A stretch of 64,000 bases of DNA from Microbacteriaceae bacterium (GTDB lineage Bacteria > Actinomycetota > Actinomycetes > Actinomycetales > Microbacteriaceae), in assembly GCA_947373155.1 (NCBI GenBank), contig CANBWO010000003.1, forward strand, positions 8,968 to 72,967. Direction: 5' to 3'. Below, in pieces: positions 4,362-51,712 of this stretch (positions within the stretch are counted from its first letter, which is position 1; each line of letters starts with the position of its first letter). Under the pieces are notes generated by a model that worked only from the letters and a program-made list of their open reading frames with translations, was not told the origin of the DNA and made no database searches. The translations under genes and the position numbers were made by a program.

Positions 4362-4371
4362 GATTTGAAAA

Positions 4372-8619: not shown

Positions 8620-8628
8620 GCTCGACTC

Positions 8629-39894: not shown

Positions 39895-40621
39895 GCCTAA
39901 AGCTCAAAACCGAATTGCGAATGTCACTCTGACATTGGCGCTGGTTGTTTTGCCTTTTTTCACCTCAAATGTGTCGGCATTAGCAGAGTCTCAGGAATCA
40001 GACTCCGGCTCTAATTCCAAAGGCCACGGCGAACATCGGAAGGCTAGCCCAACCGCCACCCCGACAGCCTCTCCAACAGCCACTGGGCGACCTTCCCAAG
40101 ATCAAAAAGGGCCAGCGCATTCGAACCTGCAAAACGAGCAAGACGAAGACTCGCAAAAGCAATCTCAGATTGCAAAGAAATACGGCGACGAAAGAGAAGT
40201 GGCGACCCCGCCGCTAATCGTAAAGCCCGCCATCCCGGTTCCGATCGCCTCGCCTTCGGCGCCAGTATCGCAAAATTCAGTTGGTGGTGCGTCGGTATCC
40301 GGCCAGCGAAAAGTCTCTACAAAATACGTGTCGCAGCCGCTTGATGTGGCTTTGCATCAGTTGCAAAAACCCAGCACTTCCCAATCTGTGCCAAAGTCGC
40401 AAATCAAGGCTTTCGATGCTTCGAAAAACGCTCCGGTAATCCAGAATATTCGTCGCGATGAGCTGGGTAATCCTGCACAAGAGTTCCTGGCTAAGGCGTA
40501 TTTCGGCATGGCAGTTGTGGCAATATTTGGAACCCTTTTAGTGGTCCATTTTTACCGAAAGCTAAGAGTTACTCGAGGTCTTGAGCAAAAAGACGGTTGG
40601 TTAGACTTATCAAGTGAGTAA
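39893..40621 (+). CDS. signal-peptide, low-complexity (Pro/Ser/Gln-rich) protein with C-terminal TM anchor
   Basis: MPKAQNRIANVTLTLALVVLPFFTSNVSALA, a disordered region, then AYFGMAVVAIFGTLLVVHFYRKLR. No family recognised. Confidence 0.45.
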   Translation: MPKAQNRIANVTLTLALVVLPFFTSNVSALAESQESDSGSNSKGHGEHRKASPTATPTASPTATGRPSQDQKGPAHSNLQNEQDEDSQKQSQIAKKYGDEREVATPPLIVKPAIPVPIASPSAPVSQNSVGGASVSGQRKVSTKYVSQPLDVALHQLQKPSTSQSVPKSQIKAFDASKNAPVIQNIRRDELGNPAQEFLAKAYFGMAVVAIFGTLLVVHFYRKLRVTRGLEQKDGWLDLSSE

Positions 40622-41312
40622 AGCCGATTTGAGTAAGAAGCCAGCCGATGTAGCGGCAATGTTCGACGAAGTCGCGGAAACCTACGACCTCAACAACGAC
40701 ATCATGTCGTTCGGACAAGACCGCGTTTGGCGCAGAGCCACTCTCAAAGCGGTAGCGCCCACCTCGGGGCAGGCCATTTTGGACCTGGCTGCCGGCACTG
40801 GCAGTTCATCGGTGGTCTTTCAAAAGCCAGGTGTTCGCGTTGTAGCCGGAGACTTCTCCGTTGGCATGTTGGCCGTTGGCCGTAAGCGCCACCCGCAACT
40901 TGAGTTTGTGTTTGCCGACGCAACCGCGCTTCCTTTCGAAGACGCTGAGTTCGACACCGTGACCATTAGTTTTGGGCTTCGTAATGTAGTTGATACCGGC
41001 AAGGCTCTAAAGGAAATGCTGCGAGTCACCAAGCCTGGCGGGAAACTTGTGATTTGCGAGTTCAGTCAGGTTCAGGCGCCTGTAATCAAGCAGGTTTACA
41101 ACTTCTACCTGAGCCGCTTGCTTCCGCTTGTTTCTAGGCTATCTAGCAAGGCCCCGGCGGCGTACACCTACCTGGGCGATTCAATTTTGGCTTGGCCAAA
41201 TCAGCAGGCATTAGCCACGTTGGTTTCAGAAGCCGGCTGGTCAAACGTGACTTTTAGAAACCAAACTTTTGGCGTGGTTGCAATCCACAGCGCCACAAAG
41301 AGCCAGGCTTAG
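40614..41312 (+). CDS. menG: demethylmenaquinone methyltransferase
   Basis: UbiE/MenG SAM motif ILDLAAGTG and FGLRNV. Confidence 0.9.
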   Translation: MSKADLSKKPADVAAMFDEVAETYDLNNDIMSFGQDRVWRRATLKAVAPTSGQAILDLAAGTGSSSVVFQKPGVRVVAGDFSVGMLAVGRKRHPQLEFVFADATALPFEDAEFDTVTISFGLRNVVDTGKALKEMLRVTKPGGKLVICEFSQVQAPVIKQVYNFYLSRLLPLVSRLSSKAPAAYTYLGDSILAWPNQQALATLVSEAGWSNVTFRNQTFGVVAIHSATKSQA

Positions 41313-41315
41313 ACC

Positions 41316-42320
41316 GTGGCAAATACGCTGCCCAAGCAGCTAAAAAAAGTAGCCGATCGCGCACTGCTCAAGCGCTTAGAAACCGGGCTCGCTCAGGTTG
41401 AAAAATCTTTGGAGCAAGCCGTTTCGCACACCGACCCGATTGCCAGCGTTACCGCTCGTCATCTGTCTGCTGCCGGTGGTAAGCGAATTCGTCCAACCCT
41501 GGTGTTGCTAACCGCGCAATACGGAGACGCAACTTTGCAGCCGGTCATTGATGCAGCGGTTGTGGTGGAACTAACTCACCTGGCAACCCTGTACCACGAC
41601 GACGTGATGGACAACGCACCCATGCGTCGCGGTGTACCTACCGCCCACGAAATTTGGGGCAATAGCGTTGCCATTCTCACCGGAGATCTGCTCTTTGCCC
41701 GCGCATCGCAGGTAGTCTCGCGCCTTGGTTCTAGGGCACTTACTTTGCAAGCCGACACCTTTGAGCGACTTTGCCTGGGCCAGCTTCATGAGACTGTGGG
41801 GCCTCAGAATGGCGAAGATGCGGTGGCTCACTACATTCAGGTGCTTGCCGACAAAACTGGCTCGCTCATCGCCGCCGCTGCCGAACTTGGAATCATGTTC
41901 AGCGGAGCGCCAGACGAGTACCGAGAACCGGTTCGACTTTACGGCGAGAAAATTGGTGTTGCCTTCCAGCTAATCGACGACGTGATTGATATTTACAGCG
42001 ATGGCGAAACCAGCGGCAAGACCCCTGGCACCGATCTTTTGGCCGGCGTTCCAACCCTGCCAATTCTTTACTTGCGCAAGCACGCGGTTACCGACTCGGC
42101 TTCTGCTGAGCTGATCGCCAAAATCGATGCCGGCCTCGATGAAAACTCCTTGCCCGAAGTGGTTGCGGCGCTCCGCGAGCACCCAGCCACATCGGAGGCC
42201 TACGAAGAAGCCAAGCGCTGGGCAGATGAAGCGGTAGCGGACATCGCCGTTTTGCCTGAGGGCAGCGTAAAGCAGGCGTTGACTGCCTTTGCTGCCGCAG
42301 TGGTCGACCGTCAGCAGTAA
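41316..42320 (+). CDS. polyprenyl diphosphate synthase (trans-IPPS; menaquinone side chain)
   Basis: First DDxxD motif in LYHDDVMDN and second in QLIDDVIDI. Confidence 0.9.
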   Translation: MANTLPKQLKKVADRALLKRLETGLAQVEKSLEQAVSHTDPIASVTARHLSAAGGKRIRPTLVLLTAQYGDATLQPVIDAAVVVELTHLATLYHDDVMDNAPMRRGVPTAHEIWGNSVAILTGDLLFARASQVVSRLGSRALTLQADTFERLCLGQLHETVGPQNGEDAVAHYIQVLADKTGSLIAAAAELGIMFSGAPDEYREPVRLYGEKIGVAFQLIDDVIDIYSDGETSGKTPGTDLLAGVPTLPILYLRKHAVTDSASAELIAKIDAGLDENSLPEVVAALREHPATSEAYEEAKRWADEAVADIAVLPEGSVKQALTAFAAAVVDRQQ

Positions 42321-42340
42321 GCGTTTACAAGCCCTAGAAT
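42316..42340 (+). promoter_or_regulatory. LacI-type operator plus -10 box of the alpha-galactosidase gene
   Basis: AGTAAGCGTTTACA (42316-42329) overlaps the upstream stop codon. TAGAAT (42335-42340) ends 7 nt before ATG 42348, which suggests a leaderless or near-leaderless mRNA. Confidence 0.5.
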
Positions 42341-42347
42341 TTGGGGC

Positions 42348-44465
42348 ATGACCCAACAGTTGATCCACCTCAGCCGCGCTGGTGTTTCGGTTCTAATCGA
42401 GACCACTACCGGAACCCCAAACGTGTTTTATTGGGGTTCCGCCTTGGCTGCTGGAGTGGATCCGGCTCAGTATCTTTTGGCCATCACGGAACCAGCACCT
42501 CACGGTTATTACGATTTCGCGCATCGAGGGGGAGCTTGGCGCGAAAACGCTCGCGGATTTTGGGGCCGCCCATCGTTGCTTGGTCACCGAGATGGCAAAG
42601 ATTGGTCGCAACTTTTCACGCTTGAAAGCACACACGTCACCGAGCACAAGGCTAGTTTCGTATCCAAAGACACCGACCTAGGGGTTGAGGTGGCTATTAG
42701 CTACGAACTCACCGCAAGCGGTTTGGTCCTGATCGACCACAGAGTCACCAACCTTGCCGAGGGCACTTTCTTTTTGGAGAACAGCACGGCTTTTATGCCG
42801 GTTCCGGATCACGCCACCGACCTTTTAGATTTCAGTGGACGTTGGCTCAAGGAGCGTCAGCCGCAGCGCAGCAAGATCCAGACCGGGCTTTGGCAGCGCG
42901 AATCTCGCGAGGGTCGCAGCGGTCACGACTACACGCTGGTGCAGTTTGTGATGACCAAGGATGCCGGATTCCAGGCCGGAGAAGTTTGGGGCCTGAGCCT
43001 GGCTTGGAGCGGTCAGGGGTCGCACGTTGTGGAGCGCCAGAGCGTGGGACGAACCCAAATCGGTGCCGGTGAACTTTTGATGCCAGGCGAGGTAACCCTG
43101 GATAAAGGTCAGACCTATCAAGCGCCAACTGTGGTTGCCGCATATGCCAAAGACGGCATCGATGGCGCCAGCCACCGCTTTCACCAGTGGGTTCGTGCGC
43201 GCGCCAATCACCCAACCAACATTCGCCCTCGCCCAGTCACTTTGAACGTGTGGGAGGCGGTTTACATGGACCACCGCCTAGACAAACTAACCGCGCTGGC
43301 CCAGGTTGCCGGAGAGATTGGCGTGGAGCGCTTTGTCCTCGACGACGGTTGGTTCGGGGCACGCCGCGACGACCACGCCGGTCTAGGGGACTGGACCGTT
43401 GCCCCAGAGGTTTGGCCAAAAGGACTCACGCCGCTGATCGATGTGGTCAAGGCAAACGGCATGGAGTTTGGGCTCTGGTTCGAAGGCGAGATGGTCAACG
43501 CTGATAGCGATCTTTACCGGGCGCACCCGGAATGGATTTTGCACAGCGGAAACCGCACACCCATCGAGGCCCGTTTTCAACAGGTGCTAGACCTTAGCCA
43601 TCCGGGGGCCTACCAGCACGTGCTGAGCCAGGTGGATGCGATTTTGAGCGAGTTCGATATTCGCTACATCAAGTGGGATCACAATCGCACTCTCACCGAG
43701 GCAGCTCATTTTGGCAAAGCCACCATGCGTAACCAGAACATCGCTATCTATCGCCTTTTCGATGAACTGAAGTTGCGTCACCCCGGGCTCGAAATCGAGT
43801 CTTGTGCTTCGGGCGGAGGGCGCATCGACCTCGGCATGATTGATCACGCTGACCGTTTCTGGACCAGCGATTGCAACGATGCCCTTGAGCGCCAAACCAT
43901 TCAGCGCTACACGTCCATCGCGATCCCACCAGAGATGTTGGGTACTCACATTGGCCCGACTCACGCGCACTCCACCGGCCGCACGCACGAACTATCGTTC
44001 AGGGCAATCACCGCACTCTTTGGTCACGCTGGACTCGAGTGGGACCTAACCGAAACTACCCCCGAAGAACGAGCCACACTCAGGTCTTGGACTGATTACT
44101 ACAAGGCCAACCGAGCCTTGCTTCACTCCGGTCGGGTTGCTCGCGTGGACGCCACCGACGCAACCGCTTGGACTCACGGCGTAGTTGCTCAGGATGGTTC
44201 CAAGGCAATCTTTGCCTACATTGCTCTGGGCATGAGCCAGTTTGCTTTACCCGCATCGATGCGCCTTGCCGGCCTTGATGCCGACGCAAAATACCTGGTT
44301 AGGTTAGTTACCCCTGCCGGAGGCTACCTGAGCACGCAAAAGTTTGACCCCGAGTGGATTAACGGCGTGACGGTAGACGGTAGTTTCTTGATGAACCAGG
44401 GATTGCGCGCACCAATCGTCAAGCCGGAAAACGCTTTCCTGCTTGAGGTGACCAGAGTCAACTAA
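42348..44465 (+). CDS. alpha-galactosidase (GH36)
   Basis: 705 aa with FVLDDGWF, YIKWDHNR and SCASGGGR, all typical of GH36. Confidence 0.9.
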   Translation: MTQQLIHLSRAGVSVLIETTTGTPNVFYWGSALAAGVDPAQYLLAITEPAPHGYYDFAHRGGAWRENARGFWGRPSLLGHRDGKDWSQLFTLESTHVTEHKASFVSKDTDLGVEVAISYELTASGLVLIDHRVTNLAEGTFFLENSTAFMPVPDHATDLLDFSGRWLKERQPQRSKIQTGLWQRESREGRSGHDYTLVQFVMTKDAGFQAGEVWGLSLAWSGQGSHVVERQSVGRTQIGAGELLMPGEVTLDKGQTYQAPTVVAAYAKDGIDGASHRFHQWVRARANHPTNIRPRPVTLNVWEAVYMDHRLDKLTALAQVAGEIGVERFVLDDGWFGARRDDHAGLGDWTVAPEVWPKGLTPLIDVVKANGMEFGLWFEGEMVNADSDLYRAHPEWILHSGNRTPIEARFQQVLDLSHPGAYQHVLSQVDAILSEFDIRYIKWDHNRTLTEAAHFGKATMRNQNIAIYRLFDELKLRHPGLEIESCASGGGRIDLGMIDHADRFWTSDCNDALERQTIQRYTSIAIPPEMLGTHIGPTHAHSTGRTHELSFRAITALFGHAGLEWDLTETTPEERATLRSWTDYYKANRALLHSGRVARVDATDATAWTHGVVAQDGSKAIFAYIALGMSQFALPASMRLAGLDADAKYLVRLVTPAGGYLSTQKFDPEWINGVTVDGSFLMNQGLRAPIVKPENAFLLEVTRVN

Positions 44466-44484
44466 CGGGGCTAGGGTTGAACAT

Positions 44485-45756
44485 ATGGGAGACCTAACAA
44501 CTGCGATGATGTCGGTCTCGCGCGCCCGGAAAGCTCACAACGGGCTAGTGGGTGCGTTCTTTATTCAGGGCTTCTTAGCGCTTTCGTACATCCCGCGAAT
44601 CCCCGAACTTATTGATCAGATTCACGTGACATTCGCCACCTGGGGTTTGATCCTCGGCTTGGCCACGCTCGGCGGCATGCTTCCGTTGCTAATGGCAAAC
44701 CACTTCATAAATCGTTTTGGCACCAGACCCGTGGTGCAGTTGATGTTCACTCTGGTTTCGCTAACCATGGCCATGTATGGCTTTGTGAATAACGGCTGGA
44801 TGTTCTTTGTTCTATCGTTTGTGCAGGCTTTCACCATGAGCTTTTTCAACGTGGCAATCAACTCGCACTCGGTGGTATTTCAGAACCGAATCGGGCGCAT
44901 CATCATCGGAAGATTCCACGCCGCGTGGAGCATCGGTGCAGCCACCGCATCAATTGTTAGCGGTGCTCTGGCAGCTGTGATCCCGCTTCGCGAGTACATG
45001 ATTCTGGTCACGAGCATTGCGGCGGTTGGGCTTTTAGTTGCATCCGCCATGTTGCTGGGGCCAACCGAAGACGGCCACGATCAAGAGAAAAAACGTGCCA
45101 AGTCGATCGGCATTTTCAAGACTCCAAGATACGTATCCTTGCTCTCACTTGGAATTTTCTGCGGAGTTTTCCCAGAGCTTTCAATGATGGACTGGAGCGC
45201 GGTTTTTGCTAAAAACGCACTCCACTTGAACCCATCACAGGTGGGGCTGCCCTATACGATTTTTGCGGTAAGTATGATTGCCGCCAGGTTGTCGATTGGG
45301 CGTTTGACCCGCAATCGGCACCTGAGCACAGTGGCTAGCAAAGCCGCAATTATGGGCTCGGTTGCCATGGCTCTTGCCGTGTTCATCGGCCCTATTGTTG
45401 CCGGAGTAGACCCGCTGCTGGCCGTTTTGGTCACCGGTGTTTTCTGGGTGGCTGCGGGTCTTGGTACCGGACCTCAGGTGCCATCATTCTTTAGCGCCAC
45501 CGGAAGTGTTCCGGGCATGAGCACCGCGCAAGCTATGTCGCGAATGAGCCTTTTCAACTCGATCATCATTCTTGGAGCCAAGGTGATTATGGGTGCTTTG
45601 GCACAGGGCATCAGTGTTCAGGTGGCTTTTATATTCCCCATCGCCACCTACATCGTGGCTAGCGTAATTGCATCATCGGTGGCTAAAAGAGACTACAAAC
45701 CAGAAAAGGTCACCGGTTTCCCGATGACCTCTCCGATCGACGTCATTCCCGACTAG
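44485..45756 (+). CDS. MFS transporter
   Basis: 423 aa with about 12 TM segments. Lies immediately downstream of the GH36 gene. Confidence 0.8.
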   Translation: MGDLTTAMMSVSRARKAHNGLVGAFFIQGFLALSYIPRIPELIDQIHVTFATWGLILGLATLGGMLPLLMANHFINRFGTRPVVQLMFTLVSLTMAMYGFVNNGWMFFVLSFVQAFTMSFFNVAINSHSVVFQNRIGRIIIGRFHAAWSIGAATASIVSGALAAVIPLREYMILVTSIAAVGLLVASAMLLGPTEDGHDQEKKRAKSIGIFKTPRYVSLLSLGIFCGVFPELSMMDWSAVFAKNALHLNPSQVGLPYTIFAVSMIAARLSIGRLTRNRHLSTVASKAAIMGSVAMALAVFIGPIVAGVDPLLAVLVTGVFWVAAGLGTGPQVPSFFSATGSVPGMSTAQAMSRMSLFNSIIILGAKVIMGALAQGISVQVAFIFPIATYIVASVIASSVAKRDYKPEKVTGFPMTSPIDVIPD

Positions 45757-45773
45757 TTTGTCGGCGCCAACTT

Positions 45774-46262
45774 TTATCTGAAGTTTGTGAACTGGATGTC
45801 GATTTCCAGGTCCTTGCCCTTGAGTAGCTGCATGGTTTCCTGCAGGTCATCGCGGCTCTTGCTCTGAACGCGCAGTTCATCGCCCTGAATATTTGCCTTG
45901 ACGCTCTTAGGACCTTCCTCGCGGATGATCTTGGAGATCTTCTTGGCCTGGTCCTGCTCGATGCCATCCTTTAGGGTTGCCTCGATTCGGTACTCCTTGC
46001 CGCTTGGGTAAGGCTTGCCGTCTTCTAGGCTCTTGAGCGAAATGCCACGCTTGATTAGCTTGCTCTGGTAAACATCCAGAACCGCCAGAACGCGCTCCTC
46101 GCTGCTTGCCTTCATGAGGATTTTGTCGCCGGACCAATCGATCTCTGCGCCAACACCCTTAAAGTCGTAGCGCTGCTCGATTTCCTTTTGAGCCTGGTTG
46201 AGGGCGTTAGCCGCCTCTTGCTTGTCTACTTTAGAGACGATGTCGAATGATGAATCTGCCAT
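45774..46262 (-). CDS. yajQ: YajQ-family nucleotide-binding protein (UPF0234)
   Basis: 162 aa with SFDIVSKVDKQE, RYDFKG and a C-terminal FTNFR. Confidence 0.9.
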   Translation of the reverse strand: MADSSFDIVSKVDKQEAANALNQAQKEIEQRYDFKGVGAEIDWSGDKILMKASSEERVLAVLDVYQSKLIKRGISLKSLEDGKPYPSGKEYRIEATLKDGIEQDQAKKISKIIREEGPKSVKANIQGDELRVQSKSRDDLQETMQLLKGKDLEIDIQFTNFR

Positions 46263-46271
46263 GTTGAAATT

Positions 46272-47306
46272 CTATCTAGCCAAGTTGGCTGGTCGGGCGG
46301 TAGAGCTGCGAACCAAAAGTTCCACAGGCCAATCCACGTTCTCTTCTATGTTCACGGGTTCGTTGTCGATCGCGTTCTCAAGCACTCTGAGTAGGCGCTC
46401 TGCCGTGTGACGACCCTGGCCGCGGACATCCTGGTTAATGGTGCTCAAACCAAAGAAGTCGCTCATGTCGTGGTTGTCCATGCCGATTACGCTCACGTCT
46501 TGCGGAACGCGCAGGCCTAGGTCCTTCACGGCCATAATCGCGCCAAAGCCCATTTCATCGCTGGAACAAACTATGGCGGTAGGCGCGTTGCGAGGGTCGC
46601 CGAGGATCTGCTTGGCGGCGTGATATGCGCCCTTCATAGTGAAGTCGGCTGGAATAAACCAGGATTCACGAATCGGCATACCGGCGTTCTTAAGCGCGTG
46701 CTCATAGCCAAATCGACGCTTGCTCGGCTGCTTGAAGTCCATTTCGGTAGGTTCTAAACCACCGATGTGCGCAATCTTGGTGTGGCCAAGGCTCAAAAGG
46801 TGTTCGGTCGCCAACTTGCCGGCGGCAAAGTCATCGATGGTCAGTGTGCGGGCACCTGTGATTGGACCACCAATACCCATGATTGGTTTGCGGGTCTTGG
46901 TGAGGTTCTCAAGTTCTTTGTCGCTGAGTTTCACTGCAACGGTGAGCACGCCATCAACGCGCTTTCTAAGCAGAAAGTCACTGAAAATCTTGTCGCGCTG
47001 ATCTAGGCCACCGCTCAAGTTGTAAAGAGTGAGGTCATACCCGTGTTCAATCAGCACTGTTTCAATGGCTTCCAACGCAACACTGAAAAACCAGCGGTCT
47101 ACAAAAGGAACTACCACACCAATATTGCGAGTGCGACCGGTGGCCAGAGTGTAGGCACTGGATGAGGCCACGTAGCCAAGTTCGGCAGCTGCTGCCTCAA
47201 CTTTTTGGCGAGCTTTGGCCGAAACGTGCTCTTTTCCGCTCAGCGCTCTGGAAACGGTTGCGGTCGATACTCCCGCTAGTCTTGCCACATCTTCAATGCC
47301 AGCCAT
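46272..47306 (-). CDS. LacI-family transcriptional regulator
   Basis: N-terminal HTH IEDVARLAGVSTATVSRALSG followed by a periplasmic-binding-fold sugar domain. Confidence 0.9.
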   Translation of the reverse strand: MAGIEDVARLAGVSTATVSRALSGKEHVSAKARQKVEAAAAELGYVASSSAYTLATGRTRNIGVVVPFVDRWFFSVALEAIETVLIEHGYDLTLYNLSGGLDQRDKIFSDFLLRKRVDGVLTVAVKLSDKELENLTKTRKPIMGIGGPITGARTLTIDDFAAGKLATEHLLSLGHTKIAHIGGLEPTEMDFKQPSKRRFGYEHALKNAGMPIRESWFIPADFTMKGAYHAAKQILGDPRNAPTAIVCSSDEMGFGAIMAVKDLGLRVPQDVSVIGMDNHDMSDFFGLSTINQDVRGQGRHTAERLLRVLENAIDNEPVNIEENVDWPVELLVRSSTARPANLAR

Positions 47307-47433: not shown

Positions 47434-47515
47434 GGCTAGTTACCCAAGCGGCCAAAGGGATCTGACTGTAAATCAGCCGGCTCAGCCTTCGGGGGTTCGA
47501 ATCCCTCACTAGCCA
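47434..47515 (+). tRNA. tRNA-Tyr (GTA), long variable arm
   Basis: GGCTAGTTACCCAAGCGGCCAAAGGGATCTGACTGTAAATCAGCCGGCTCAGCCTTCGGGGGTTCGAATCCCTCACTAGCCA. Very similar in layout to bacterial tRNA-Tyr. Confidence 0.9.
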
Positions 47516-47518
47516 CAG

Positions 47519-47557
47519 AAAAACCCCTGACAGGAACAAACCCTGTCAGGGGTTTTT
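47519..47557 (+). terminator. intrinsic terminator after tRNA-Tyr
   Basis: CCCCTGACAGG (47524-47534) pairs with CCTGTCAGGGG (47542-47552), followed by TTTTT. Confidence 0.75.
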
Positions 47558-47662
47558 AGCGTCGTGAGGGGTCTCCAGTTCCCAAAACTCATTCAAAATT
47601 CTCGAATCAATTGGCGGGCTCGGCCCTGCAAAGGCATAGCCGCCTTTGCTGATCGGGCCTCT

Positions 47663-47686
47663 GGTTCGAATCCCTCACTAGCCACA
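47663..47686 (+). repeat. duplicate of tRNA-Tyr 3' end (copy 2), att-like
   Basis: GGTTCGAATCCCTCACTAGCCACA is identical to 47494-47517. It is followed by a 15-bp-stem hairpin at 47691-47724. Confidence 0.9.
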
Positions 47687-47833
47687 CAAAATGAGTAAAC
47701 CCACCTGTCGGTGGGTTTACTCATTTAAGGCAAGTTAGGTATCACAAGCCCCTCAGGCAAGCGTTCGACCCGCGGAGATTTCCGCGGTCTCACCTCGCGG
47801 CCAAAGCAACTTTGCCACCAAACGCGCGGCTCC

Positions 47834-47857
47834 GGTTCGAATCCCTCACTAGCCACA
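47834..47857 (+). repeat. duplicate of tRNA-Tyr 3' end (copy 3), att-like
   Basis: GGTTCGAATCCCTCACTAGCCACA is identical to 47494-47517. Confidence 0.9.
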
Positions 47858-48148
47858 AAAATCCCGCTCTCGGCGGCTAGCATTTTTGCTTTTCATGAGG
47901 ATTTCAGTTTCCAGCTTCTGTAAAGCCGCATTGCTTTTTACGTTTCTCACTCAACCTCCAATCTGGATACGAAGTCACCCAGGTGATTAATGCACTCAGC
48001 TGAGACTTCAGGCCTGTTTGCCCCTATTACCAAGTCGCATTATTTTCAGCCGAAAAATGACCCGGTCGGAACGCGTGCATATTGTCATTTAAGTTCAGAG
48101 TGTTACCTGAAGCAAATGCCCTAATGCCGCGTTAATCGTAAAGAGGAC

Positions 48149-48186
48149 GTCGAATGCGCATTCACTTATCGTGGTGCGCATTCGAC
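48149..48186 (-). terminator. stem-loop downstream of the islet minus-strand gene pair
   Basis: GTCGAATGCGCA (48149-48160) pairs with TGCGCATTCGAC (48175-48186). This is a perfect 12-bp stem with a 14-nt loop, 48 nt past the stop at 48234. Confidence 0.45.
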
Positions 48187-48233
48187 CCCGCATTCGCCAT
48201 AGTCGGTTTATCGAAAACTACTTAGAAGAGTTG

Positions 48234-48638
48234 TTAGACGATGTTTCGGTTGTCCAAGATATTCTTCGCCCTGAACGGCCTGCCTGCTCCGTGAAATATC
48301 GCGAACCCCATGAAAAATAGAACATATCCATCTTGATTGATCGAGAAAGTGCTACTTAGATGTGAAGTTACATTCAAAACAATAAAAACAGGAAGAGCGC
48401 TAATCGCGCCAATAATTAGTCCTGGCACTTGTTTATTTCGGTAGTGAACTTTTTCTATCAGCCAGGAGGCAATTGCACAGAGAACTCCACATACGAATGC
48501 CAAGGCGGTAACTGTGATTGTCCCCTGAAGCATGTACATTTGCCCGAATCCCAAGACCAGGGCTGTAGTCGCAGCCATCCACGCTGCTTGAAAACCTAGA
48601 TACAGGAATCTGGCAAGAAACTTCGCACTGATTTTCAT
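48234..48638 (-). CDS. 4-TM membrane protein, unknown function (islet)
   Basis: 134 aa with four hydrophobic segments. AT-rich. Starts 7 nt after the upstream gene's stop. Confidence 0.6.
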   Translation of the reverse strand: MKISAKFLARFLYLGFQAAWMAATTALVLGFGQMYMLQGTITVTALAFVCGVLCAIASWLIEKVHYRNKQVPGLIIGAISALPVFIVLNVTSHLSSTFSINQDGYVLFFMGFAIFHGAGRPFRAKNILDNRNIV

Positions 48639-48644
48639 GACACT

Positions 48645-49664
48645 TTACTTATTCAAGTTAGTGGCGAAATCTTGCCACTTGCTCTGAGCGCCATTAAGGT
48701 ATGCGAAATTATTATTTAAATCATTCACCACATGGGCCGAGACTACGAGTTTCTTGACTCCTGAAACTGTTCTTAGCTCAAATAAAATCCACGAACCAAG
48801 TCCGTCGGTGTGGTTTGCCGTCGCCAGGAAGCTGAATCCGAAGGAGTCTGTGCCATTGAACTCAGAGTCGAAGCGACACTCCATGTTGTAGGGAAAAACT
48901 AAAAAGGTGGTTGTCAATGGCAGCAGCTGGTTCGGCACGGGAAATCCCTGGGGGGCGCCTGTAACGGGGAAATAGCAGTTGAAGCAGGATTTCAGGTGGA
49001 TCTTGTTTGTTGCAGCTGTTTTATTAACAGTGTATTGGTACGTGTAATCCCAACCCGGGTCAGCTAGAACCGGATACTGGAGATTTGTAGCGGTTTCGGA
49101 AATGCATTGGGTCAAAGTTCCCGCTTCCCAACTGTACGCTGTTGGAACGTTGGTTCCTGCTGAATCAACCGCCCATGGATCTGAAATATGGAGCAGTACA
49201 TCAGCTCCGTGCTCTAAGTAGAAACCCTCGCCACCCTGCTCCATGGTGGTTCCATCTGGCACATCGAACTGGAAACTTGAACAGTGTGAGCTTTCGGCAG
49301 ATTTAATTACAGTCAGTATGCGACCGCCAGTCGCAGTGGGCTGGATCACCGAAGACGTTTCTGAATTGCTATCTTGAACCAAGACGAGGCCTTGTTGATG
49401 GCTTATCGATGTTGTATCGGCCGAGATTTCAACGCTAGGCAGTTCCGCTAGGAGTTTATTTGGGCTAGTGCTGGAATCAACCAAGATCGACTCTCGATTC
49501 TTAGTTACTTGAAACTGGCTAGCAGAGCTTGTTTCCTGCAGCAACTCAGGCTTGAGCTCTTTAATCAAGCTAATTGACGAGTCCTCGGCATTTGCCGGCT
49601 GTGCCTGTATTGCGAACGCTGCGATCAAACTTACGGTGAGCGTAATTACTTTTATTTTTTTCAT
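48645..49664 (-). CDS. secreted protein, unknown function (islet)
   Basis: 339 aa. Signal peptide MKKIKVITLTVSLIAAFAIQAQPANA, a Ser/Thr-rich N-terminal region and a Cys-containing C-terminal domain. No family recognised. Confidence 0.65.
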   Translation of the reverse strand: MKKIKVITLTVSLIAAFAIQAQPANAEDSSISLIKELKPELLQETSSASQFQVTKNRESILVDSSTSPNKLLAELPSVEISADTTSISHQQGLVLVQDSNSETSSVIQPTATGGRILTVIKSAESSHCSSFQFDVPDGTTMEQGGEGFYLEHGADVLLHISDPWAVDSAGTNVPTAYSWEAGTLTQCISETATNLQYPVLADPGWDYTYQYTVNKTAATNKIHLKSCFNCYFPVTGAPQGFPVPNQLLPLTTTFLVFPYNMECRFDSEFNGTDSFGFSFLATANHTDGLGSWILFELRTVSGVKKLVVSAHVVNDLNNNFAYLNGAQSKWQDFATNLNK

Positions 49665-50098
49665 GTTTCCCTAAACGTGTCAGATTGGGTGTTTTATGTT
49701 TTTGTTTAGTTGGAGTTATTTGCTTTTGAAGTTAGAAATGGGATTTCCTAAATGGCTTAGGTGCCATCCACATCGTGAACTTGGCCTATGGCAGTTTTGC
49801 TCTTTTTCCCTGCCTGGCACCTTGGGCCCCTTGCGGAGTGCTAAAAGACGCAATTGCTTTACCTCTCGGCGCACCGTCAAGTTCAGTTTTGAACGCATGT
49901 CCATGTTTCTCGTTCGTAACCGAATCCCTTATCAAATCTGATGAGCTTCGGAATTCGGAACGTCGCCTGGCAAACCATAGGCAGGCACTCGAAGTACTTT
50001 GCCTAACGCGCAACGCTTTTTCACCCAGAAAGGCCTTGGCCAGGATGTGGTTCACGATTTTGCAATTGGTAGAAAGCTAGGCAACGCTGCAGCAGTGC

Positions 50099-50239
50099 AT
50101 GGGTCCGCTCACTGAAGAAACGTTCGAAGTGCCAAGAAAGGCAAATAGTAGATCGAAAAAAATAGACATTAAAATCACCCCCGCCTGTTGTCCTAGTTAC
50201 GAGTGTGGCGTTGTCAAAAATATTTGTCAAATATTGTAA
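50099..50239 (+). CDS. candidate small ORF, 46 aa, Cys-rich C-terminus (speculative)
   Basis: Hand translation gives MGPLTEETFEVPRKANSRSKKIDIKITPACCPSYECGVVKNICQIL*. It ends 9 nt before the regulator ATG on the same strand. No clear SD. Below the track size cutoff. Confidence 0.25.
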   Translation: MGPLTEETFEVPRKANSRSKKIDIKITPACCPSYECGVVKNICQIL

Positions 50240-50248
50240 AATATTGTC

Positions 50249-51502
50249 ATGAAAGATTATTTGATTTTCAAGGATGCTCGTCAAAAGCTTGGGCTCACAC
50301 TCGAAGAGGTGGCACATGGGATATGCTCACCGAGTTTTTTATCCCTCATTGAAAGAGGTCTGAGACAGCCAAAGCCTCAACTTTTGCAAATGCTAGAGAT
50401 CAAGCTAGCTAAAGGATTTTCGAATGTTGCCGACCAGTTCCGCCCGAGTGACGAGTATCTCCAGGCGCTGGGGTTCTTGGCAGTTGGCGATGGCGCTGCT
50501 GTGGAGGTGCTGGTGGACGATATGCCTTCCGGACAGGAGAGAACGCTCATAGTGGCACTACTCAATGAACTAAAGGGTGAAACGGCTTACGCAGCAGCGC
50601 TTTTAGAGCCAGTCCTGCGAAACTGCCTGATTTCTGCAAATCAGTTTGCTCTCGCCACCCAGGCTATGGTGCGAATGTCCAGGGATATGGGTGACCTGTA
50701 CACCGCGATTTACTGGGCAGAAAGTACCCTATCGCAGCTGGCTCAAAAGTGGAATGATGATTCGCAAACACATGAACTTGTGGCAACACTGTCAAGTGTG
50801 TACTTAGAGGCGGGAGACATTAATAGAGCAAAGTCGCTCATAAACAGCATCCAAGGCAAAGAAGTAAAGGACTGGGATAGGGTCACTGCGCTTTGGTCGG
50901 GAGGCATTCTGGCGTTCACAACTGGAGATATGGCTAGGGCTCGCATAATGCTCCGAGAGGCACACCAGCTTTCAATCCAATCCGACCGTGAACTCTCTCG
51001 AGCGCGAATTTTGCAAACAACTATCTGGATCGAGGTTCGCACAGGTGAAGTGGTTGCCGGATCGGCGCCAGAGCAGCTAGAGCGCCTTTCAACCTATTTC
51101 AATGAACGAGGCTTGATTGAAGATTTCGCCCAAACACTGAACACTCTCGCGCTAGTTCAAGCAAAAACAGGCAATTACCTACAGGCAACAGAAACAGCTG
51201 AAGCCTCGCTTGAACTTTTGAACGATTTGCCACCACTTAGTAGGGCCAAGCTGGGTATTTGGAACGCAGAGGTAATTTTGGCACTCGGCGACAGGCATCG
51301 CGCTTCCGAAATCTTGCTGAACGCAATCGAGGTGTTATCTGGCACACAGGCCTCGAGATCCACTGCTACTGCATGGGCGGAAATGTCTGAAATCTTCACT
51401 CTTCTTGGTGAGCCTGCACTCGCACTTGACTGCCTTCGCTCTTCGGTTCAGGCAGCAGGATTAATCCAAGTCAAGAGTTCGGCCAAAATACTCCATGAAT
51501 AG
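50249..51502 (+). CDS. XRE-family HTH regulator with C-terminal TPR-like repeat domain (RNPP-like architecture)
   Basis: The N-terminus ARQKLGLTLEEVAHGICSPSFLSLIERGLRQP is a Cro/C1 HTH. The remaining 340 or so aa are helical repeats rich in Ala/Leu. Confidence 0.75.
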   Translation: MKDYLIFKDARQKLGLTLEEVAHGICSPSFLSLIERGLRQPKPQLLQMLEIKLAKGFSNVADQFRPSDEYLQALGFLAVGDGAAVEVLVDDMPSGQERTLIVALLNELKGETAYAAALLEPVLRNCLISANQFALATQAMVRMSRDMGDLYTAIYWAESTLSQLAQKWNDDSQTHELVATLSSVYLEAGDINRAKSLINSIQGKEVKDWDRVTALWSGGILAFTTGDMARARIMLREAHQLSIQSDRELSRARILQTTIWIEVRTGEVVAGSAPEQLERLSTYFNERGLIEDFAQTLNTLALVQAKTGNYLQATETAEASLELLNDLPPLSRAKLGIWNAEVILALGDRHRASEILLNAIEVLSGTQASRSTATAWAEMSEIFTLLGEPALALDCLRSSVQAAGLIQVKSSAKILHE

Positions 51503-51712
51503 GGCTGCACGCGTTTCGACTAAAACTGACCTTTAAAGAACTGCGATTTTAGGCAAGGCGAATATGAAGTTCAAATCATTTGAAGAGAGAAGTCGTAAAT
51601 AAAGTGTCGATGAGTGAAGGCATTCGCAATCAAGATCCCAAATTGACGGTTTGCCCAGCAGATAGTCTTAAGGGGTTAGTTTTTACCTCTTAGAACCGGA
51701 GAATTACGCGCC

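What the first reader, a model, noticed from the sequence alone, without database searches (positions are those of the whole stretch)
47858..51610. AT-rich islet next to tRNA-Tyr: secreted protein, 4-TM protein and a divergent XRE-HTH/TPR regulator, none with a family I can name
This stretch is visibly AT-richer than the rest of the window. Spot counts on single 60-nt lines gave about 38-47% GC here and about 60% in ftsH; I did not compute the whole region. It starts right after the third copy of the tRNA-Tyr 3' end and ends just before icd. It contains a tightly coupled minus-strand pair: a 339-aa signal-peptide protein, then a 134-aa 4-TM protein 7 nt downstream. About 580 bp away and divergent is a 417-aa regulator with a Cro/C1 HTH fused to a long TPR-like repeat domain. 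That domain combination is the architecture of the RNPP peptide-sensing regulators of Firmicutes and, as far as I know, is little described in Actinobacteria. A secreted protein followed by a small polytopic membrane protein is also the classic layout of an effector/immunity or bacteriocin/immunity pair. I could assign neither protein to a known family from motifs. No integrase, transposase or other mobility gene is present.
Basis: partly seen in the sequence, partly recalled or inferred. Interest (0 to 1): 0.7.

Follow-up and report, generated by a model that had tools for sequence, protein, structure and literature searches.

The report
Peptide-regulated bacteriocin cassette at tRNA-Tyr
A small, foreign-looking stretch of DNA next to a tRNA gene in an actinobacterium most likely encodes a secreted bacteriocin-type toxin with its membrane immunity protein. 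It sits behind a regulator and a previously unnoticed 30-residue peptide gene that together look like a peptide quorum-sensing switch, a kind so far described only in Firmicutes.

Summary
The islet has 47.5% GC against 54.8% for the window, and GC3 of 47-52% against 60-69%. It starts after the third exact copy of the tRNA-Tyr 3' end.

The 339-aa protein has a Sec signal and a carrier domain that ends at a conserved ADPxW junction. This carrier is shared with closticin-574-like bacteriocin precursors and with Streptomyces proteins tipped by DUF4258. Its C-terminal domain belongs to no Pfam or NCBIfam family, is predicted to have a Bet v 1/START helix-grip fold, and always lies at the extreme C-terminus.

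A small polytopic membrane gene follows it in about 22 of 29 genomes. This gene tracks the C-terminal domain rather than the carrier and diverges to background identity. That is the signature of a toxin/immunity pair.

The HTH-TPR regulator is not a partner of that pair. The ORF is divergent from the regulator and leads an operon whose secreted cargo differs between genomes, nearly always beside tRNA-Tyr.

Best reading: a peptide-controlled bacteriocin cassette in a tRNA-Tyr hotspot. Toxicity, signalling and regulation are all inferred, not shown.

The parts
47434..47516 (+). tRNA-Tyr(GTA), the hotspot anchor
   Evidence: ARAGORN; Rfam tRNA 52.5 bits
47663..47686 (+). second exact copy of the 24-nt tRNA-Tyr 3' end, an att-like scar
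   Evidence: 3 exact matches against 0 expected. It is followed by the perfect hairpin 47689-47726
47834..47857 (+). third exact copy of the tRNA-Tyr 3' end; the AT-rich islet starts here
48145..48189 (-). 12-bp hairpin about 45 nt after the 134-aa gene; candidate operon terminator
   Evidence: fold of 48120-48236(-): centroid keeps only this stem, z = -2.2. It has no strong U tract
48234..48638 (-). 134-aa polytopic (3-4 TM) membrane protein; predicted immunity protein
   Evidence: hydropathy. A 125-160-aa 4-5 TM ORF sits at the same place in about 22 of 29 loci, and also after the Gordonia protein that has a different N-terminus. Identity falls to about 20%
48648..49049 (-). C-terminal domain (residues 206-339) of the 339-aa protein: helix-grip (Bet v 1/START-like) fold with invariant CFNC...H-x-D-G-x-G-S; predicted toxin module
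   Evidence: AF2 pLDDT 88.7, topology b-a-a-b6-a. Foldseek finds only the Bet v 1/PR-10/START/ARO-CYC group: prob 1.0 and target-normalised TM 0.43-0.58 (mostly 0.5-0.58) for the single-domain members, 0.92-0.96 and about 0.3 for the two-domain ARO/CYC. 272 clusters, always at the extreme C-terminus
49050..49064 (-). ADPGW junction (residues 201-205) between carrier and C-terminal module; predicted processing site (D|P)
   Evidence: D202, P203 and W205 are invariant. Similarity to the B. cereus, phage BN12 and Streptomyces proteins ends exactly here. The predicted mature closticin-like bacteriocin starts PDW (PMC10888436)
49050..49562 (-). N-terminal beta-rich carrier/pro-domain (residues about 35-205), shared with closticin-574-like precursors
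   Evidence: BLASTP E 1e-12 to the B. cereus plasmid protein. tblastn hits to plasmids and to phage BN12 'putative closticin'. Streptomyces DUF4258 fusions
49587..49664 (-). Sec signal peptide (residues 1-26, ...PANA|ED)
   Evidence: sequence; AF2 pLDDT below 50 for residues 1-25
49665..50076 (-). 412-nt spacer between the peptide ORF and the toxin gene; no conserved ORF or structure
   Evidence: z = -1.4. No match to cargo of other loci
50077..50169 (-). 30-aa ORF MSIFFDLLFAFLGTSNVSSVSGPMHCCSVA; candidate signalling propeptide, first gene of the minus-strand operon
   Evidence: It is present in every regulator locus that has enough sequence, with invariant G-x-x-x-C-C. There are synonymous differences from L012 in the conserved codons
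50175..50182 (-). GGGGGTGA ribosome-binding site, 5 nt before the peptide ATG
   Evidence: sequence; conserved in L012 and L082
50219..50245 (.). operator-like repeats TTG(A/T)CAAATATT, including the palindrome AATATTTGTCAAATATT (50219-50235), between the peptide and regulator starts
   Evidence: 3 of the 6 window matches cluster here. The TGTCAAA core is conserved in L012, L082 and L085. L085 and L097 have the palindrome TGTCAAA-N3-TTTGACA
50249..51502 (+). 417-aa XRE-HTH (residues 8-50) + TPR-type helical repeat regulator
   Evidence: Pfam. AF2 pLDDT 84, all-helical with about 9 helix pairs. Foldseek

Best explanation
The islet is one variant of a recombination-prone cassette site beside tRNA-Tyr and holds two modules.

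Module 1, conserved in relatives, is a cytoplasmic XRE-HTH/TPR regulator (50249-51502) and, 79 nt away on the other strand, a 30-codon gene (50169-50077). The peptide has a hydrophobic first half and an invariant G-x-x-x-C-C near the end. Repeated TGTCAAA-type operator motifs lie between the two starts.

Module 2, which differs between genomes, lies downstream of the peptide gene on the same strand. Here it is a Sec-secreted two-domain protein plus a small polytopic membrane protein 6 nt behind it.

Proposed mechanism for module 2: the 339-aa protein is exported and probably cut at the conserved Asp-Pro bond of ADPGW, as in closticin-574-type precursors. This would release a 134-residue helix-grip (lipid-pocket) domain that harms neighbouring cells at the membrane or at a lipid-linked envelope precursor. 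The producer is protected by the membrane-embedded partner.

Proposed mechanism for module 1: the peptide or its C-terminal part is released, accumulates, is re-imported and binds the TPR domain. That switches the regulator at the shared operator, so that peptide, toxin and immunity genes are expressed together at high density.

Shown:
- the composition and the tRNA repeats;
- the domain architecture and the predicted fold;
- the gene-pair conservation and the domain shuffling;
- the co-variation of downstream genes with the C-terminal domain;
- the conservation of the small ORF and the operator motif;
- the cargo swapping at tRNA-Tyr.

Inferred: toxicity, immunity, the target, cleavage, peptide export and sensing, and control of the toxin operon by the regulator.
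For: Pair:
- A 4-5 TM ORF follows directly in about 22 of 29 GTDB loci, and there is no other conserved neighbour.

Carrier domain linked to toxins and bacteriocins:
- In Streptomyces the same carrier is fused to DUF4258 (30.7 bits) and followed by DUF2283 (39.8 bits). DUF4258 is listed as a BECR-fold toxin family of type II toxin-antitoxin modules, target unknown, and as a CdiA-CT type (PMC11980606, PMC11630599). That DUF2283 is its usual antitoxin partner rests on my own knowledge.
- The carrier also occurs with DUF2599 or glycine-rich hydrophobic tails, followed by 2-4 TM ORFs.
- It occurs on a 4.7-kb RepL/Mob B. cereus plasmid (315 aa followed by a 124-aa 4-TM protein) and in Paenibacillus phage BN12 as 'putative closticin'.
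- Closticin 574 is a 309-aa preprotein processed to a C-terminal 82-aa bacteriocin (PMC10888436).

C-terminal domain:
- It forms 272 clusters, always at the extreme C-terminus. It occurs on other carriers: CVNH lectin (63 bits), long repeats, or a bare signal peptide.
- The Gordonia variant with an unrelated N-terminus is still followed by a 4-TM ORF.
- The partner falls to about 20% identity while the C-terminal domain stays at 40-60%.
- It has a helix-grip fold. A START-like toxin tip has been reported in one polymorphic-toxin system, and membrane-anchored or 4-TM immunity proteins in related ones (PMC12419801).

Mobile or conflict context: integrase, PrimPol and AbiD in L003; KAP NTPase and kinase in L005.

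Regulator and peptide:
- The small ORF is present in window, L012, L082, L085/86, L097/98 and L099. The peptide clades co-vary with the regulator clades.
- In L097 the peptide stop is 20 nt from the start of a toxin with the same carrier domain, which is followed by a polytopic TM protein.
- The cargo always starts with signal-peptide proteins.
- The operator motif is conserved.
Against: - No experiment supports any step.
- No known toxin motif is present. The helix-grip fold is mostly a ligand-binding fold, not a killing fold, and the Foldseek E-values are modest (1e-3 to 1e-2).
- The link to closticin rests on an annotator's label plus a primer-derived N-terminus, not on the closticin 574 sequence itself.
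- In the window the peptide ORF and the toxin gene are 412 nt apart, with no operator copy near the toxin start. Co-regulation is therefore weaker here than in L097.
- The peptide lacks a basic n-region, so its export route is unclear. No exporter or Opp system was seen.
- The regulator shows no specific homology to Rgg, PlcR, AimR or Rap. MalT domain III and generic TPR proteins match as well or better.
- The regulator family is tiny (10 proteins, 4 metagenome loci).
- The islet has no distal tRNA repeat and no integrase.
Confidence: 0.55

Rival explanations
1. The 339-aa and 134-aa pair is not a weapon. It would be a secreted lipid- or hydrophobic-ligand-binding protein (helix-grip pocket) that delivers cargo to, takes cargo from, or is anchored by the small membrane protein, for example for scavenging or envelope lipid handling.
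For: The only structural matches are ligand-binding or cyclase Bet v 1/START proteins. Several family members sit between core genes (ResB-CcsB, AccBC-Maf) with no mobile genes nearby. No catalytic toxin motif is recognisable.
Against: - The carrier domain is otherwise attached to a bona fide toxin domain with its antidote, and to closticin-like bacteriocin tails.
- The domain is always terminal and is shuffled among carriers that include a lectin.
- The partner diverges to background identity, which is unusual for a transport partner.
- The distribution is patchy, with plasmid, integrative-element and defence-island contexts.
Confidence: 0.15
2. The regulator is an ordinary autoregulated XRE repressor or activator whose TPR domain senses something other than the neighbouring peptide (a small molecule or a protein, MalT-like). 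The 30-codon ORF would then be a small membrane peptide, a bacteriocin-like or RiPP precursor, or a leader ORF rather than a signal.
For: The best TM-score is to MalT domain III (0.57/0.64), and generic TPR proteins score like Rap and PlcR. The sequence profile finds only generic TPRs and XRE HTHs. The peptide core is Ser/Thr-rich with two Cys, like lanthipeptide cores. It lacks a classical signal peptide.
Against: - The small ORF is the only conserved partner of the regulator across loci whose cargo is otherwise unrelated. It co-varies with the regulator clade.
- No modification enzyme is conserved next to it.
- The layout (divergent, about 80 nt away, shared operator) is that of Rgg/SHP-type systems.
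- The receptor size, TPR and adjacency criteria of the RRNPP signature are met (PMC10075063).
Confidence: 0.3
3. The pair is an anti-phage or superinfection-exclusion module (surface protein plus membrane protein) carried in defence islands.
For: Neighbours in other loci are AbiD (E 5e-62), a KAP NTPase, a kinase and a ClpP-like protease. The sister island at the same tRNA-Tyr carries DRT4 (E 4e-98).
Against: There is no PADLOC or PHROGs hit for either protein. There are no relatives in IMG/VR contigs. The architecture (secreted protein with a swappable terminal domain plus a cognate downstream gene) is that of secreted toxins. Toxin/immunity and defence genes commonly share islands, so context alone does not discriminate.
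Confidence: 0.07
4. The region is not horizontally acquired. It would be an old resident locus whose low GC reflects relaxed or different selection on secreted and regulatory genes.
For: The regulator and peptide occupy the same tRNA-Tyr/LacI/YajQ neighbourhood in several genera. The identical islet is present in all five MAGs of the species that were recovered. There is no integrase and no distal repeat.
Against: - The toxin pair is absent from that site in the relatives and is found at unrelated sites elsewhere, including an integrase-bearing element at 71% identity.
- The regulator is 77% identical in one relative but 34-35% in two others, which are only somewhat more distant by core proteins: YajQ 84-86% in all three, LacI 63% against 55%.
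- The orientation of the module is inverted in L085.
- Relatives have att-like repeats enclosing the module: a 53-nt repeat in L012 and two full tRNA-Tyr genes in L099.
- GC3 is 10-20 points below that of the neighbours.
Confidence: 0.1

Closest known systems
Closticin 574-type bacteriocin precursors (Clostridium tyrobutyricum closticin 574; closticin-like genes of Bacillus and of Paenibacillus phage BN12)
   Same: Sec signal peptide and a pro-region of about 200 aa that is homologous (BLASTP 1e-12). The conserved ADPxW junction is where the mature part begins. A small polytopic membrane gene lies directly downstream. The pair is carried on plasmids, phages and islands.
   Different: The C-terminal module here is a 134-residue helix-grip domain with CFNC...HxDGxGS, not an 82-residue hydrophobic cationic peptide. 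The host is an actinobacterium. The family is not modelled in Pfam or NCBIfam. Activity and cleavage are untested.
Sec-dependent polymorphic toxin/immunity pairs, including the START-like helix-grip toxin tip reported on Cystatin-domain carriers (Burroughs et al. 2025, PMC12419801)
   Same: A constant N-terminal carrier, a swappable C-terminal module and a cognate downstream gene that changes with the module. Immunity proteins are membrane-anchored or 4-TM. A helix-grip lipid-binding tip has a precedent.
   Different: The carrier is different (a beta-rich closticin-type pro-domain, not a Cystatin-like lipoprotein domain). The partner is a 4-TM protein rather than a BamE-like one. I could not compare sequences with that paper's START-like family.
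RRNPP peptide quorum sensing, especially Rgg/SHP and ComR/XIP, which control bacteriocins in streptococci
   Same: A cytoplasmic HTH plus TPR receptor of 417 aa. A short, divergently transcribed peptide gene lies about 80 nt away with a shared operator. Receptor and peptide co-diversify into clades. The downstream operon encodes secreted antagonistic proteins.
   Different: The phylum is Actinomycetota (RRNPP is described for Firmicutes, PMC10075063). There is no detectable homology to known receptors. The peptide has a hydrophobic N-half without a basic n-region and a polar C-end with an invariant Cys-Cys. Export, import and binding are unknown.
tRNA-linked genomic islands / defence-island hotspots
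   Same: The islet lies beside a tRNA gene with repeated copies of the tRNA 3' end and deviant composition. Cargo of the conflict type is swapped between relatives (DRT4, MazF, amidase, protease inhibitor, toxins).
   Different: There is no integrase. In the window the repeats are stacked 170 nt apart on the tRNA side only, and the cassette lies beyond them. A conserved regulator-peptide module stays while the cargo changes.
Membrane-acting toxins with polytopic immunity proteins (pore-forming colicins, CDI ionophores)
   Same: The immunity protein is a small integral membrane protein encoded right after the toxin, and it is highly polymorphic (CdiI proteins share about 30% identity within a group, PMC11630599).
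   Different: The toxin fold and the delivery route are different. No pore-forming helices are predicted in the C-terminal domain.

Membership tests
RRNPP quorum-sensing systems (signature in PMC10075063) | Receptor of 250-500 aa | tested here: met
   417 aa
RRNPP quorum-sensing systems | Receptor carries TPR-type repeats (peptide-binding domain) | tested here: met
   TPR_12 41.1 bits, above the cut-off. The AF2 model is all-helical with repeated helix pairs from residue about 68 to 402, pLDDT 84
RRNPP quorum-sensing systems | N-terminal HTH DNA-binding domain (Rgg/PlcR/AimR/ComR type) | tested here: met
   HTH_3 31.9 bits at residues 8-50
RRNPP quorum-sensing systems | Adjacent small propeptide gene (10-100 aa) | tested here: met
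   A 30-aa ORF at 50169-50077 with RBS GGGGGTGA. It is conserved in all 6 distinct regulator loci that have upstream sequence, with invariant G-x-x-x-C-C and synonymous substitutions
RRNPP quorum-sensing systems | Propeptide exported by Sec or PptAB and matured | tested here: inconclusive
   The N-half is hydrophobic but has no basic n-region. No signal-peptide predictor was available and no exporter lies in the islet
RRNPP quorum-sensing systems | Homology of the receptor to known Rap/Rgg/NprR/PlcR/PrgX/AimR proteins | tested here: inconclusive
   Foldseek lists phi3T Rap (TM 0.48/0.54) and PlcR (0.34/0.47), but MalT domain III (0.57/0.64) and LGN score as well or better. The sequence profile against PDB gives only generic TPRs and XRE HTHs
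RRNPP quorum-sensing systems | Imported peptide binds the receptor and changes its activity | not testable with these tools
   Needs binding and reporter assays
Closticin 574-type bacteriocin precursors | Sec signal peptide followed by a homologous pro-region of about 200 aa | tested here: met
   Signal MKK...PANA|ED. Residues 35-205 align to the B. cereus plasmid protein, E 1e-12. tblastn to BN12 'putative closticin', E 6e-6. The closticin 574 sequence itself was not available
Closticin 574-type bacteriocin precursors | Conserved junction at which the mature bacteriocin starts | tested here: met
   ADPGW at residues 201-205; D202, P203 and W205 are invariant. Similarity ends there. The predicted mature closticin-like peptide starts PDW (PMC10888436). 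Cleavage itself was not tested
Closticin 574-type bacteriocin precursors | C-terminal mature peptide of about 82 aa, hydrophobic and cationic | tested here: not met
   The C-terminal part is a 134-residue globular helix-grip domain
Closticin 574-type bacteriocin precursors | Antimicrobial activity of the released part | not testable with these tools
   Needs expression and killing assays
Polymorphic toxin / immunity systems | Constant N-terminal region with alternative C-terminal domains | tested here: met
   The same carrier occurs with CFNC, DUF4258, DUF2599 and glycine-rich tails. The CFNC domain occurs on other carriers
Polymorphic toxin / immunity systems | The downstream gene changes with the C-terminal domain, not with the carrier | tested here: met
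   DUF4258 is followed by DUF2283. CFNC is followed by a 4-TM ORF, including the Gordonia protein with an unrelated N-terminus
Polymorphic toxin / immunity systems | Toxicity of the tip and specific neutralisation by the partner | not testable with these tools
   Experimental
Bet v 1 / START / SRPBCC superfamily | Helix-grip topology (b-a-a-b6-long a) | tested here: met
   DSSP order E208-212, H217-226, H228-231, six strands, H320-338. Foldseek prob 1.0, target-normalised TM 0.43-0.58 (mostly 0.5-0.58) to Bet v 1, Ara h 8, kirola, PYR1 and Ms6760
Bet v 1 / START / SRPBCC superfamily | Sequence membership in a curated family of the clan | tested here: not met
   No Pfam or NCBIfam hit for 19+10 members. 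A weak DUF1990 hit on one Gordonia protein (17.9 bits, below the cut-off) was not reproduced
tRNA-integrated genomic island | Direct repeat of the tRNA 3' end at the far boundary, and an integrase | tested here: not met
   The repeats are at 47663 and 47834 only, and none lies near 51500-51712. No integrase ORF. Relatives do have far-end repeats (L012 53 nt, L099 a full tRNA)
tRNA-integrated genomic island | tRNA adjacency and deviant composition | tested here: met

The most novel reading that the evidence does not exclude
This would be the first RRNPP-style peptide signalling system in Actinomycetota. A cytoplasmic HTH-TPR receptor and a divergently encoded 30-residue Cys-Cys peptide have split into at least two receptor/peptide 'pherotypes' at one tRNA-Tyr locus. 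They act as a fixed switch in front of interchangeable secreted weapons. In this genome the weapon is a new bacteriocin class in which a closticin-type pro-domain delivers a helix-grip (START-like) lipid-pocket domain that is countered by a 4-TM immunity protein.
Probability: 0.35. Interest if true: 0.8.

Novelty: new variant of a known kind. Interest (0 to 1): 0.64.

Why it matters
Peptide quorum sensing through cytoplasmic TPR receptors is regarded as a Firmicutes trait, while actinobacteria are thought to signal with small molecules (PMC10075063). A conserved receptor-peptide pair with co-varying alleles in freshwater actinobacteria would extend that mechanism to a second phylum. It also gives a directly testable system: a 30-codon ORF, a 17-bp palindrome and one regulator.

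The toxin side defines an unmodelled protein family (272 clusters). It links closticin-type bacteriocin precursors of Firmicutes with actinobacterial polymorphic toxins. It also suggests that a helix-grip lipid-binding domain can serve as a secreted antibacterial module with a polytopic membrane antidote.

Finally, the locus shows how a tRNA hotspot can keep a regulatory switch while exchanging the genes it drives.

Tried and rejected
- Family searches: Pfam, NCBIfam, PADLOC and PHROGs on the 339-aa and 134-aa proteins gave nothing.
- PDB sequence search with the family profile gave nothing. BFVD fold search gave nothing meaningful.
- DUF1990: a weak sub-threshold hit on one Gordonia member was not reproduced on ten other members, so it was dropped.
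- Conserved third gene: all-against-all clustering of neighbours in 38 loci found only the membrane partner. ABC ATPases and Maf reflect generic or orthologous context. The regulator is therefore not a partner of the toxin family in general.
- Empty site (tRNA-Tyr joined to icd): not found. All relatives recovered have other cargo there.
- Phage origin: no DNA similarity to phage genomes. No relatives of the toxin family or the regulator in IMG/VR.
- Structured RNA: Rfam finds only the tRNA. The 412-nt spacer folds no better than shuffles (z = -1.4).
- The 15-nt inverted repeat 48065-48079 / 51506-51520 brackets the three genes. By my estimate it is near chance expectation for 5 kb, and it is not conserved in L012, so it is not claimed.
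- Propeptide downstream of the regulator (51503-51712): only 12- and 22-codon ORFs with no conservation, so rejected.
- RiPP reading of the small ORF: no modification enzyme is conserved beside it.
- The metagenome scan for regulator relatives returned only 4 loci, so the peptide conservation rests on 6 distinct loci.
- The original closticin 574 paper (PMC150056) is not held.

Full report
**1. Observation.**
The stretch 47858-51610 has 47.5% GC against 54.8% for the window. In 500-nt windows GC falls to 44-51% between 48.0 and 51.7 kb and rises to 57-58% inside icd. Third-position GC is 0.47-0.52 in the three genes and 0.60-0.69 in LacI, YajQ, MFS, icd and MMPL.

tRNA-Tyr(GTA) lies at 47434-47516. 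Its last 24 nt recur exactly at 47663-47686 and 47834-47857, with none expected by chance. The tRNA and the second copy are each followed by a different perfect hairpin.

The ORFs are as stated, except that the gap between the two minus-strand genes is 6 nt. The regulator carries HTH_3 and TPR_12 above the Pfam cut-offs. The other two proteins match no model in Pfam, NCBIfam, PADLOC or PHROGs.

**2. The 339-aa protein and its partner.**
A word-indexed search of 5.8 billion proteins found only 19 relatives, none with a Pfam domain. A pattern scan of GTDB species genomes found 67 loci. The full-length hits are mostly in Microbacteriaceae, with some in Dermabacteraceae, Micrococcus, Arthrobacter and Brevibacterium.

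In about 22 of 29 full-length loci an ORF of 125-160 aa with 4-5 hydrophobic segments starts within a few dozen bases of the stop. This includes loci where gene callers had missed it. Clustering all neighbouring ORFs of 38 loci found no other conserved neighbour.

The two genes are therefore a self-contained module, and they land in unrelated places:
- between core genes (ResB-CcsB and AccBC-Maf);
- in an element with integrase, PrimPol-helicase and AbiD;
- next to a kinase, a ClpP-like protease and a KAP NTPase.

**3. Domain structure.**
An AlphaFold2 model built on the 19-sequence alignment is confident (pLDDT 88.7, pTM 0.85). It shows a disordered signal peptide, a beta-rich N-terminal domain up to about residue 205, and a C-terminal domain with the order strand, helix, helix, six strands, long helix.

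Foldseek against the PDB returns essentially one fold group for that C-terminal part. The group includes Bet v 1, Ara h 8, kirola, PYR1, mycobacterial Ms6760 and the aromatase/cyclase StfQ. For the single-domain members the probability is 1.0 and target-normalised TM is 0.43-0.58 (mostly 0.5-0.58) over about 145 columns. The two-domain aromatase/cyclases score 0.92-0.96 and about 0.3. E-values are only 1e-3 to 1e-2. This is the helix-grip fold, which normally encloses a hydrophobic ligand.

Invariant residues are C227 and C230 (CFNCYFP), H285, D287 and S291 (NHxDGxGS), and D202, P203 and W205 at the domain junction.

**4. Evidence for a toxin/immunity system.**
- (a) The N-terminal domain alone occurs in Streptomyces, Acidimicrobiia and others, with different C-termini that begin right after the same ...YPVvADPaW motif.
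- One Streptomyces protein ends in DUF4258 (30.7 bits) and is followed by a 70-aa DUF2283 protein (39.8 bits). DUF4258 is listed as a BECR-fold toxin family of type II toxin-antitoxin modules (target unknown) and as a CdiA-CT toxin type (PMC11980606, PMC11630599). That DUF2283 is its usual antitoxin partner is my own recollection, not a tool result.
- Other variants end in DUF2599 or in glycine-rich hydrophobic tails and are followed by 2-4 TM ORFs.
- (b) A profile of the C-terminal domain, searched against 1.84 billion representative proteins, finds 272 clusters, and in every listed hit the domain is at the extreme C-terminus. Its N-terminal partners vary: the carrier domain, a 600-residue repeat region, a CVNH lectin (63 bits), or just a signal peptide with a short linker.
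- (c) A Gordonia protein has an unrelated N-terminus but the same C-terminal domain, and it is still followed by an overlapping 153-aa 4-TM ORF. The membrane partner therefore follows the C-terminal domain, not the carrier.
- (d) Across 190 locus pairs the median identity is 42% for the C-terminal domain, 33% for the carrier and 22% for the membrane partner. The last value is about background for forced alignments. phmmer with the window's partner finds only its closest relative, and the big-database search finds only two clusters.

A constant carrier, a swappable terminal domain and a fast-evolving cognate downstream gene are the defining pattern of polymorphic toxin/immunity systems. A START-like helix-grip tip has been reported in one polymorphic-toxin system, and membrane-anchored or 4-TM immunity proteins in related ones (PMC12419801).

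**5. Link to a characterised bacteriocin type.**
tblastn of the 339-aa protein against plasmids and phages matches only the carrier domain. The plasmid hits are in Streptomyces, Curtobacterium, Rhodococcus, Arthrobacter and Bacillus cereus. The phage hits are Microbacterium phage Min1 and Paenibacillus phage BN12.

In BN12 the gene is annotated 'putative closticin' and is followed by a 120-aa 3-TM gene. In B. cereus it lies on a 4.7-kb RepL/Mob plasmid as a 315-aa protein followed by a 124-aa 4-TM protein. BLASTP aligns window residues 35-205 with the B. cereus protein (E 1e-12), and the alignment stops exactly at ADPGW/ADPDW. After the junction, the Bacillus and phage proteins continue with a cationic hydrophobic tail of about 80 residues.

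Closticin 574 is made as a 309-aa preprotein with a 27-aa signal and is processed outside the cell to a C-terminal 82-aa bacteriocin. The predicted mature closticin-like peptide of B. altitudinis starts PDW (primer sequence in PMC10888436), which places the cut inside the conserved Asp-Pro of this junction.

I therefore read the window protein as a closticin-type precursor scaffold that carries a different, larger warhead.

**6.
The regulator has only about ten relatives in the large database. Its homologues are not neighbours of the toxin family in general. In most of the distinct loci recovered they lie beside tRNA-Tyr, often in the same MFS-YajQ-LacI neighbourhood:
- L012-14: regulator 77% identical;
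- L085/86, L097/98 and L099: regulator 33-35% identical.
- L082 (48% identical) has no tRNA on its 8-kb contig.

Aligning the upstream regions revealed a conserved element whose reverse complement is a ribosome-binding site followed by a short ORF. In the window this is 50169-50077 on the minus strand, encoding MSIFFDLLFAFLGTSNVSSVSGPMHCCSVA.

An equivalent ORF of 30-32 codons exists in every regulator locus with enough upstream sequence:
- L012: MSIFLNLFIALVSGRTPSASSGPIHCCSAT
- L082: a similar peptide with an unclear start codon
- L085/86: MIELIYLLITGGQPSQNTQSATGTSVCCKFN
- L097/98: MIELIRFLIINTHPNRNSNSSAGTSECCTFQ
- L099: MLQLILLIITGQYSSPERISTAGTSPCCKFKD

G-x-x-x-C-C is invariant. Between the window and L012, the codons for S, G, P, C and S in the conserved end differ synonymously (sequences). 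This argues for translation under purifying selection.

The peptides fall into two groups that match the two regulator groups. L012 is somewhat closer to the window by core proteins than L085 and L097 (YajQ 84-86% in all three; LacI 63% against 55%). The regulator, however, drops from 77% to 34-35%. This looks like allelic divergence of a receptor-peptide pair rather than steady vertical drift.

Between the two start codons lie repeated TTG(A/T)CAAATATT motifs with a 17-bp palindrome (50219-50235), and three of the six window-wide matches cluster there. L085 and L097 have TGTCAAA-N3-TTTGACA at the same place.

**7. What the peptide operon drives.**
The small ORF is the first gene of the strand that carries the variable cargo, and the first cargo proteins all have signal peptides. 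The cargo in each locus is:
- L012: two unknown secreted proteins;
- L085: an I36-type protease inhibitor plus an ABC transporter;
- L082: a trypsin-like protease and a paralogue of its N-terminal region;
- L099: an unknown protein plus an Amidase_6 protein;
- L097: a 320-aa protein with the same carrier domain as the window toxin (29.5% over 149 aa, E 2e-12), ending in a DUF2599-like tail and followed by a 145-aa polytopic membrane protein.

In L097 the toxin start lies 20 nt after the peptide stop, so peptide, toxin and membrane protein form one operon there. In the window a 412-nt spacer without recognisable features separates them. No operator copy lies near the toxin start, so co-transcription is plausible but weaker here.

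**8. Is the regulator an RNPP protein?**
It meets the architectural signature used to define RRNPP systems (PMC10075063): receptor size, TPRs, HTH and an adjacent small ORF. Homology is not demonstrable. Foldseek on a confident model (pLDDT 84) lists phage phi3T Rap, pLS20 Rap and PlcR. MalT domain III has the best TM-scores, and generic TPR proteins such as LGN rank as high. A sequence profile against PDB chains finds only generic TPRs and XRE HTH domains. The peptide also differs from known propeptides, with no basic n-region and a polar Cys-Cys end. I therefore say the system works like an Rgg/SHP-type system, but I do not file it as a member.

**9. The site.**
In L012 the segment between tRNA-Tyr and a 53-nt exact repeat of its 3' half (11488-11540) contains two unknown secreted proteins, the peptide ORF, the regulator, a DRT4 reverse transcriptase (E 4e-98) and two small ORFs. 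In L099 two complete tRNA-Tyr genes flank the module together with a MazF pair. In L085 the module is inverted relative to LacI. None of these has an integrase.

In the window the three tRNA-end copies are stacked 170 nt apart, each with its own hairpin. The cassette lies beyond the last copy, with no repeat before icd. The simplest reading is a hotspot that has seen repeated integrations and deletions. Cargo is now exchanged mainly by recombination between conserved flanks (tRNA-Tyr and the regulator-peptide module). This is inference.

The same islet is present, unchanged, in five MAGs that I take to be one species. No true empty site was recovered.

**10. Verdict.**
The most likely function is a peptide-controlled bacteriocin/immunity cassette.
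- The toxin/immunity reading is fairly well supported by comparative evidence (about 0.7).
- The peptide-signalling reading is suggestive (about 0.5).
- Control of this particular toxin operon by the regulator is the weakest step.

Both parts are variants of known kinds: closticin-type or polymorphic toxins, and RRNPP-type switches. Their unusual features are a helix-grip warhead, a 4-TM antidote, an actinobacterial host and a Cys-Cys peptide. Nothing here is experimentally shown.

Noticed in passing
L012 6692-11540 (GCA_947452675.1, same tRNA-Tyr site): The sister island is bounded by tRNA-Tyr and a 53-nt exact repeat of its 3' half. A DRT4-type defence reverse transcriptase (525 aa, PADLOC E 4e-98) lies directly after the regulator homologue, followed by two small unknown ORFs (68 and 61 aa). 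There is no integrase.
   Followed up: partly
L099 72-154 and 4659-4741: Two complete tRNA-Tyr genes flank a 4.5-kb module. It contains the peptide ORF, an unknown secreted protein, an Amidase_6 protein, the regulator and a MazF toxin with a likely antitoxin.
   Followed up: partly
window 47518-47858: Each copy of the tRNA-Tyr 3' end is followed by its own, different hairpin (47519-47557 and 47689-47726, both perfect). The units are 169 and 171 nt apart. They look like stacked remnants of successive integrations with the element bodies deleted.
   Followed up: partly
L003 (Logan SRR24362737 contig), 183-8717: The closest non-identical relative of the pair (71% and about 45-50% identity) sits in an element with a tyrosine integrase, a PrimPol/AAA_25 primase-helicase and an AbiD abortive-infection gene (E 5e-62).
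   Followed up: partly
L101 (B. cereus plasmid NZ_CP053968.1, 4.7 kb): A minimal RepL/MobC/relaxase plasmid whose only other genes are a closticin-like precursor (315 aa), a 124-aa 4-TM protein and a 67-aa protein. This is a classic small bacteriocin-plasmid layout, yet all three are annotated as hypothetical.
   Followed up: partly
window 48065-48079 and 51506-51520: A 15-nt inverted repeat (14 of 15 complementary) brackets the 4-TM gene, the toxin, the peptide ORF and the regulator. The right arm starts 4 nt after the regulator stop. By my estimate it is near chance expectation for a 5-kb region, and it is not seen in L012.
   Followed up: partly
L019 and L020 (Lacisediminihabitans changchengi, two scaffolds): Two copies of the toxin-plus-5-TM pair in one genome, with identical match coordinates and scores. 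This may be a duplicated or mobile segment.
   Followed up: no
L082 3598-5877: The cargo behind the peptide ORF is a secreted trypsin-like protease (419 aa, GDSGGP motif). A separate 188-aa protein nearly duplicates its N-terminal region and may be a pro-domain-like inhibitor.
   Followed up: no
P0168 (metagenomic protein, 304 aa): CVNH (cyanovirin-type lectin, 63 bits) is fused to the CFNC helix-grip domain. This suggests sugar-directed targeting of the same C-terminal module.
   Followed up: no
window 40000-47300 compared with L088-L092 and L012: The MFS-YajQ-LacI block is conserved across genera. A GH36 melibiase gene lies next to the MFS gene in this species but not in L012 or L085, so there is further small-scale gene flux around the hotspot.
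   Followed up: no
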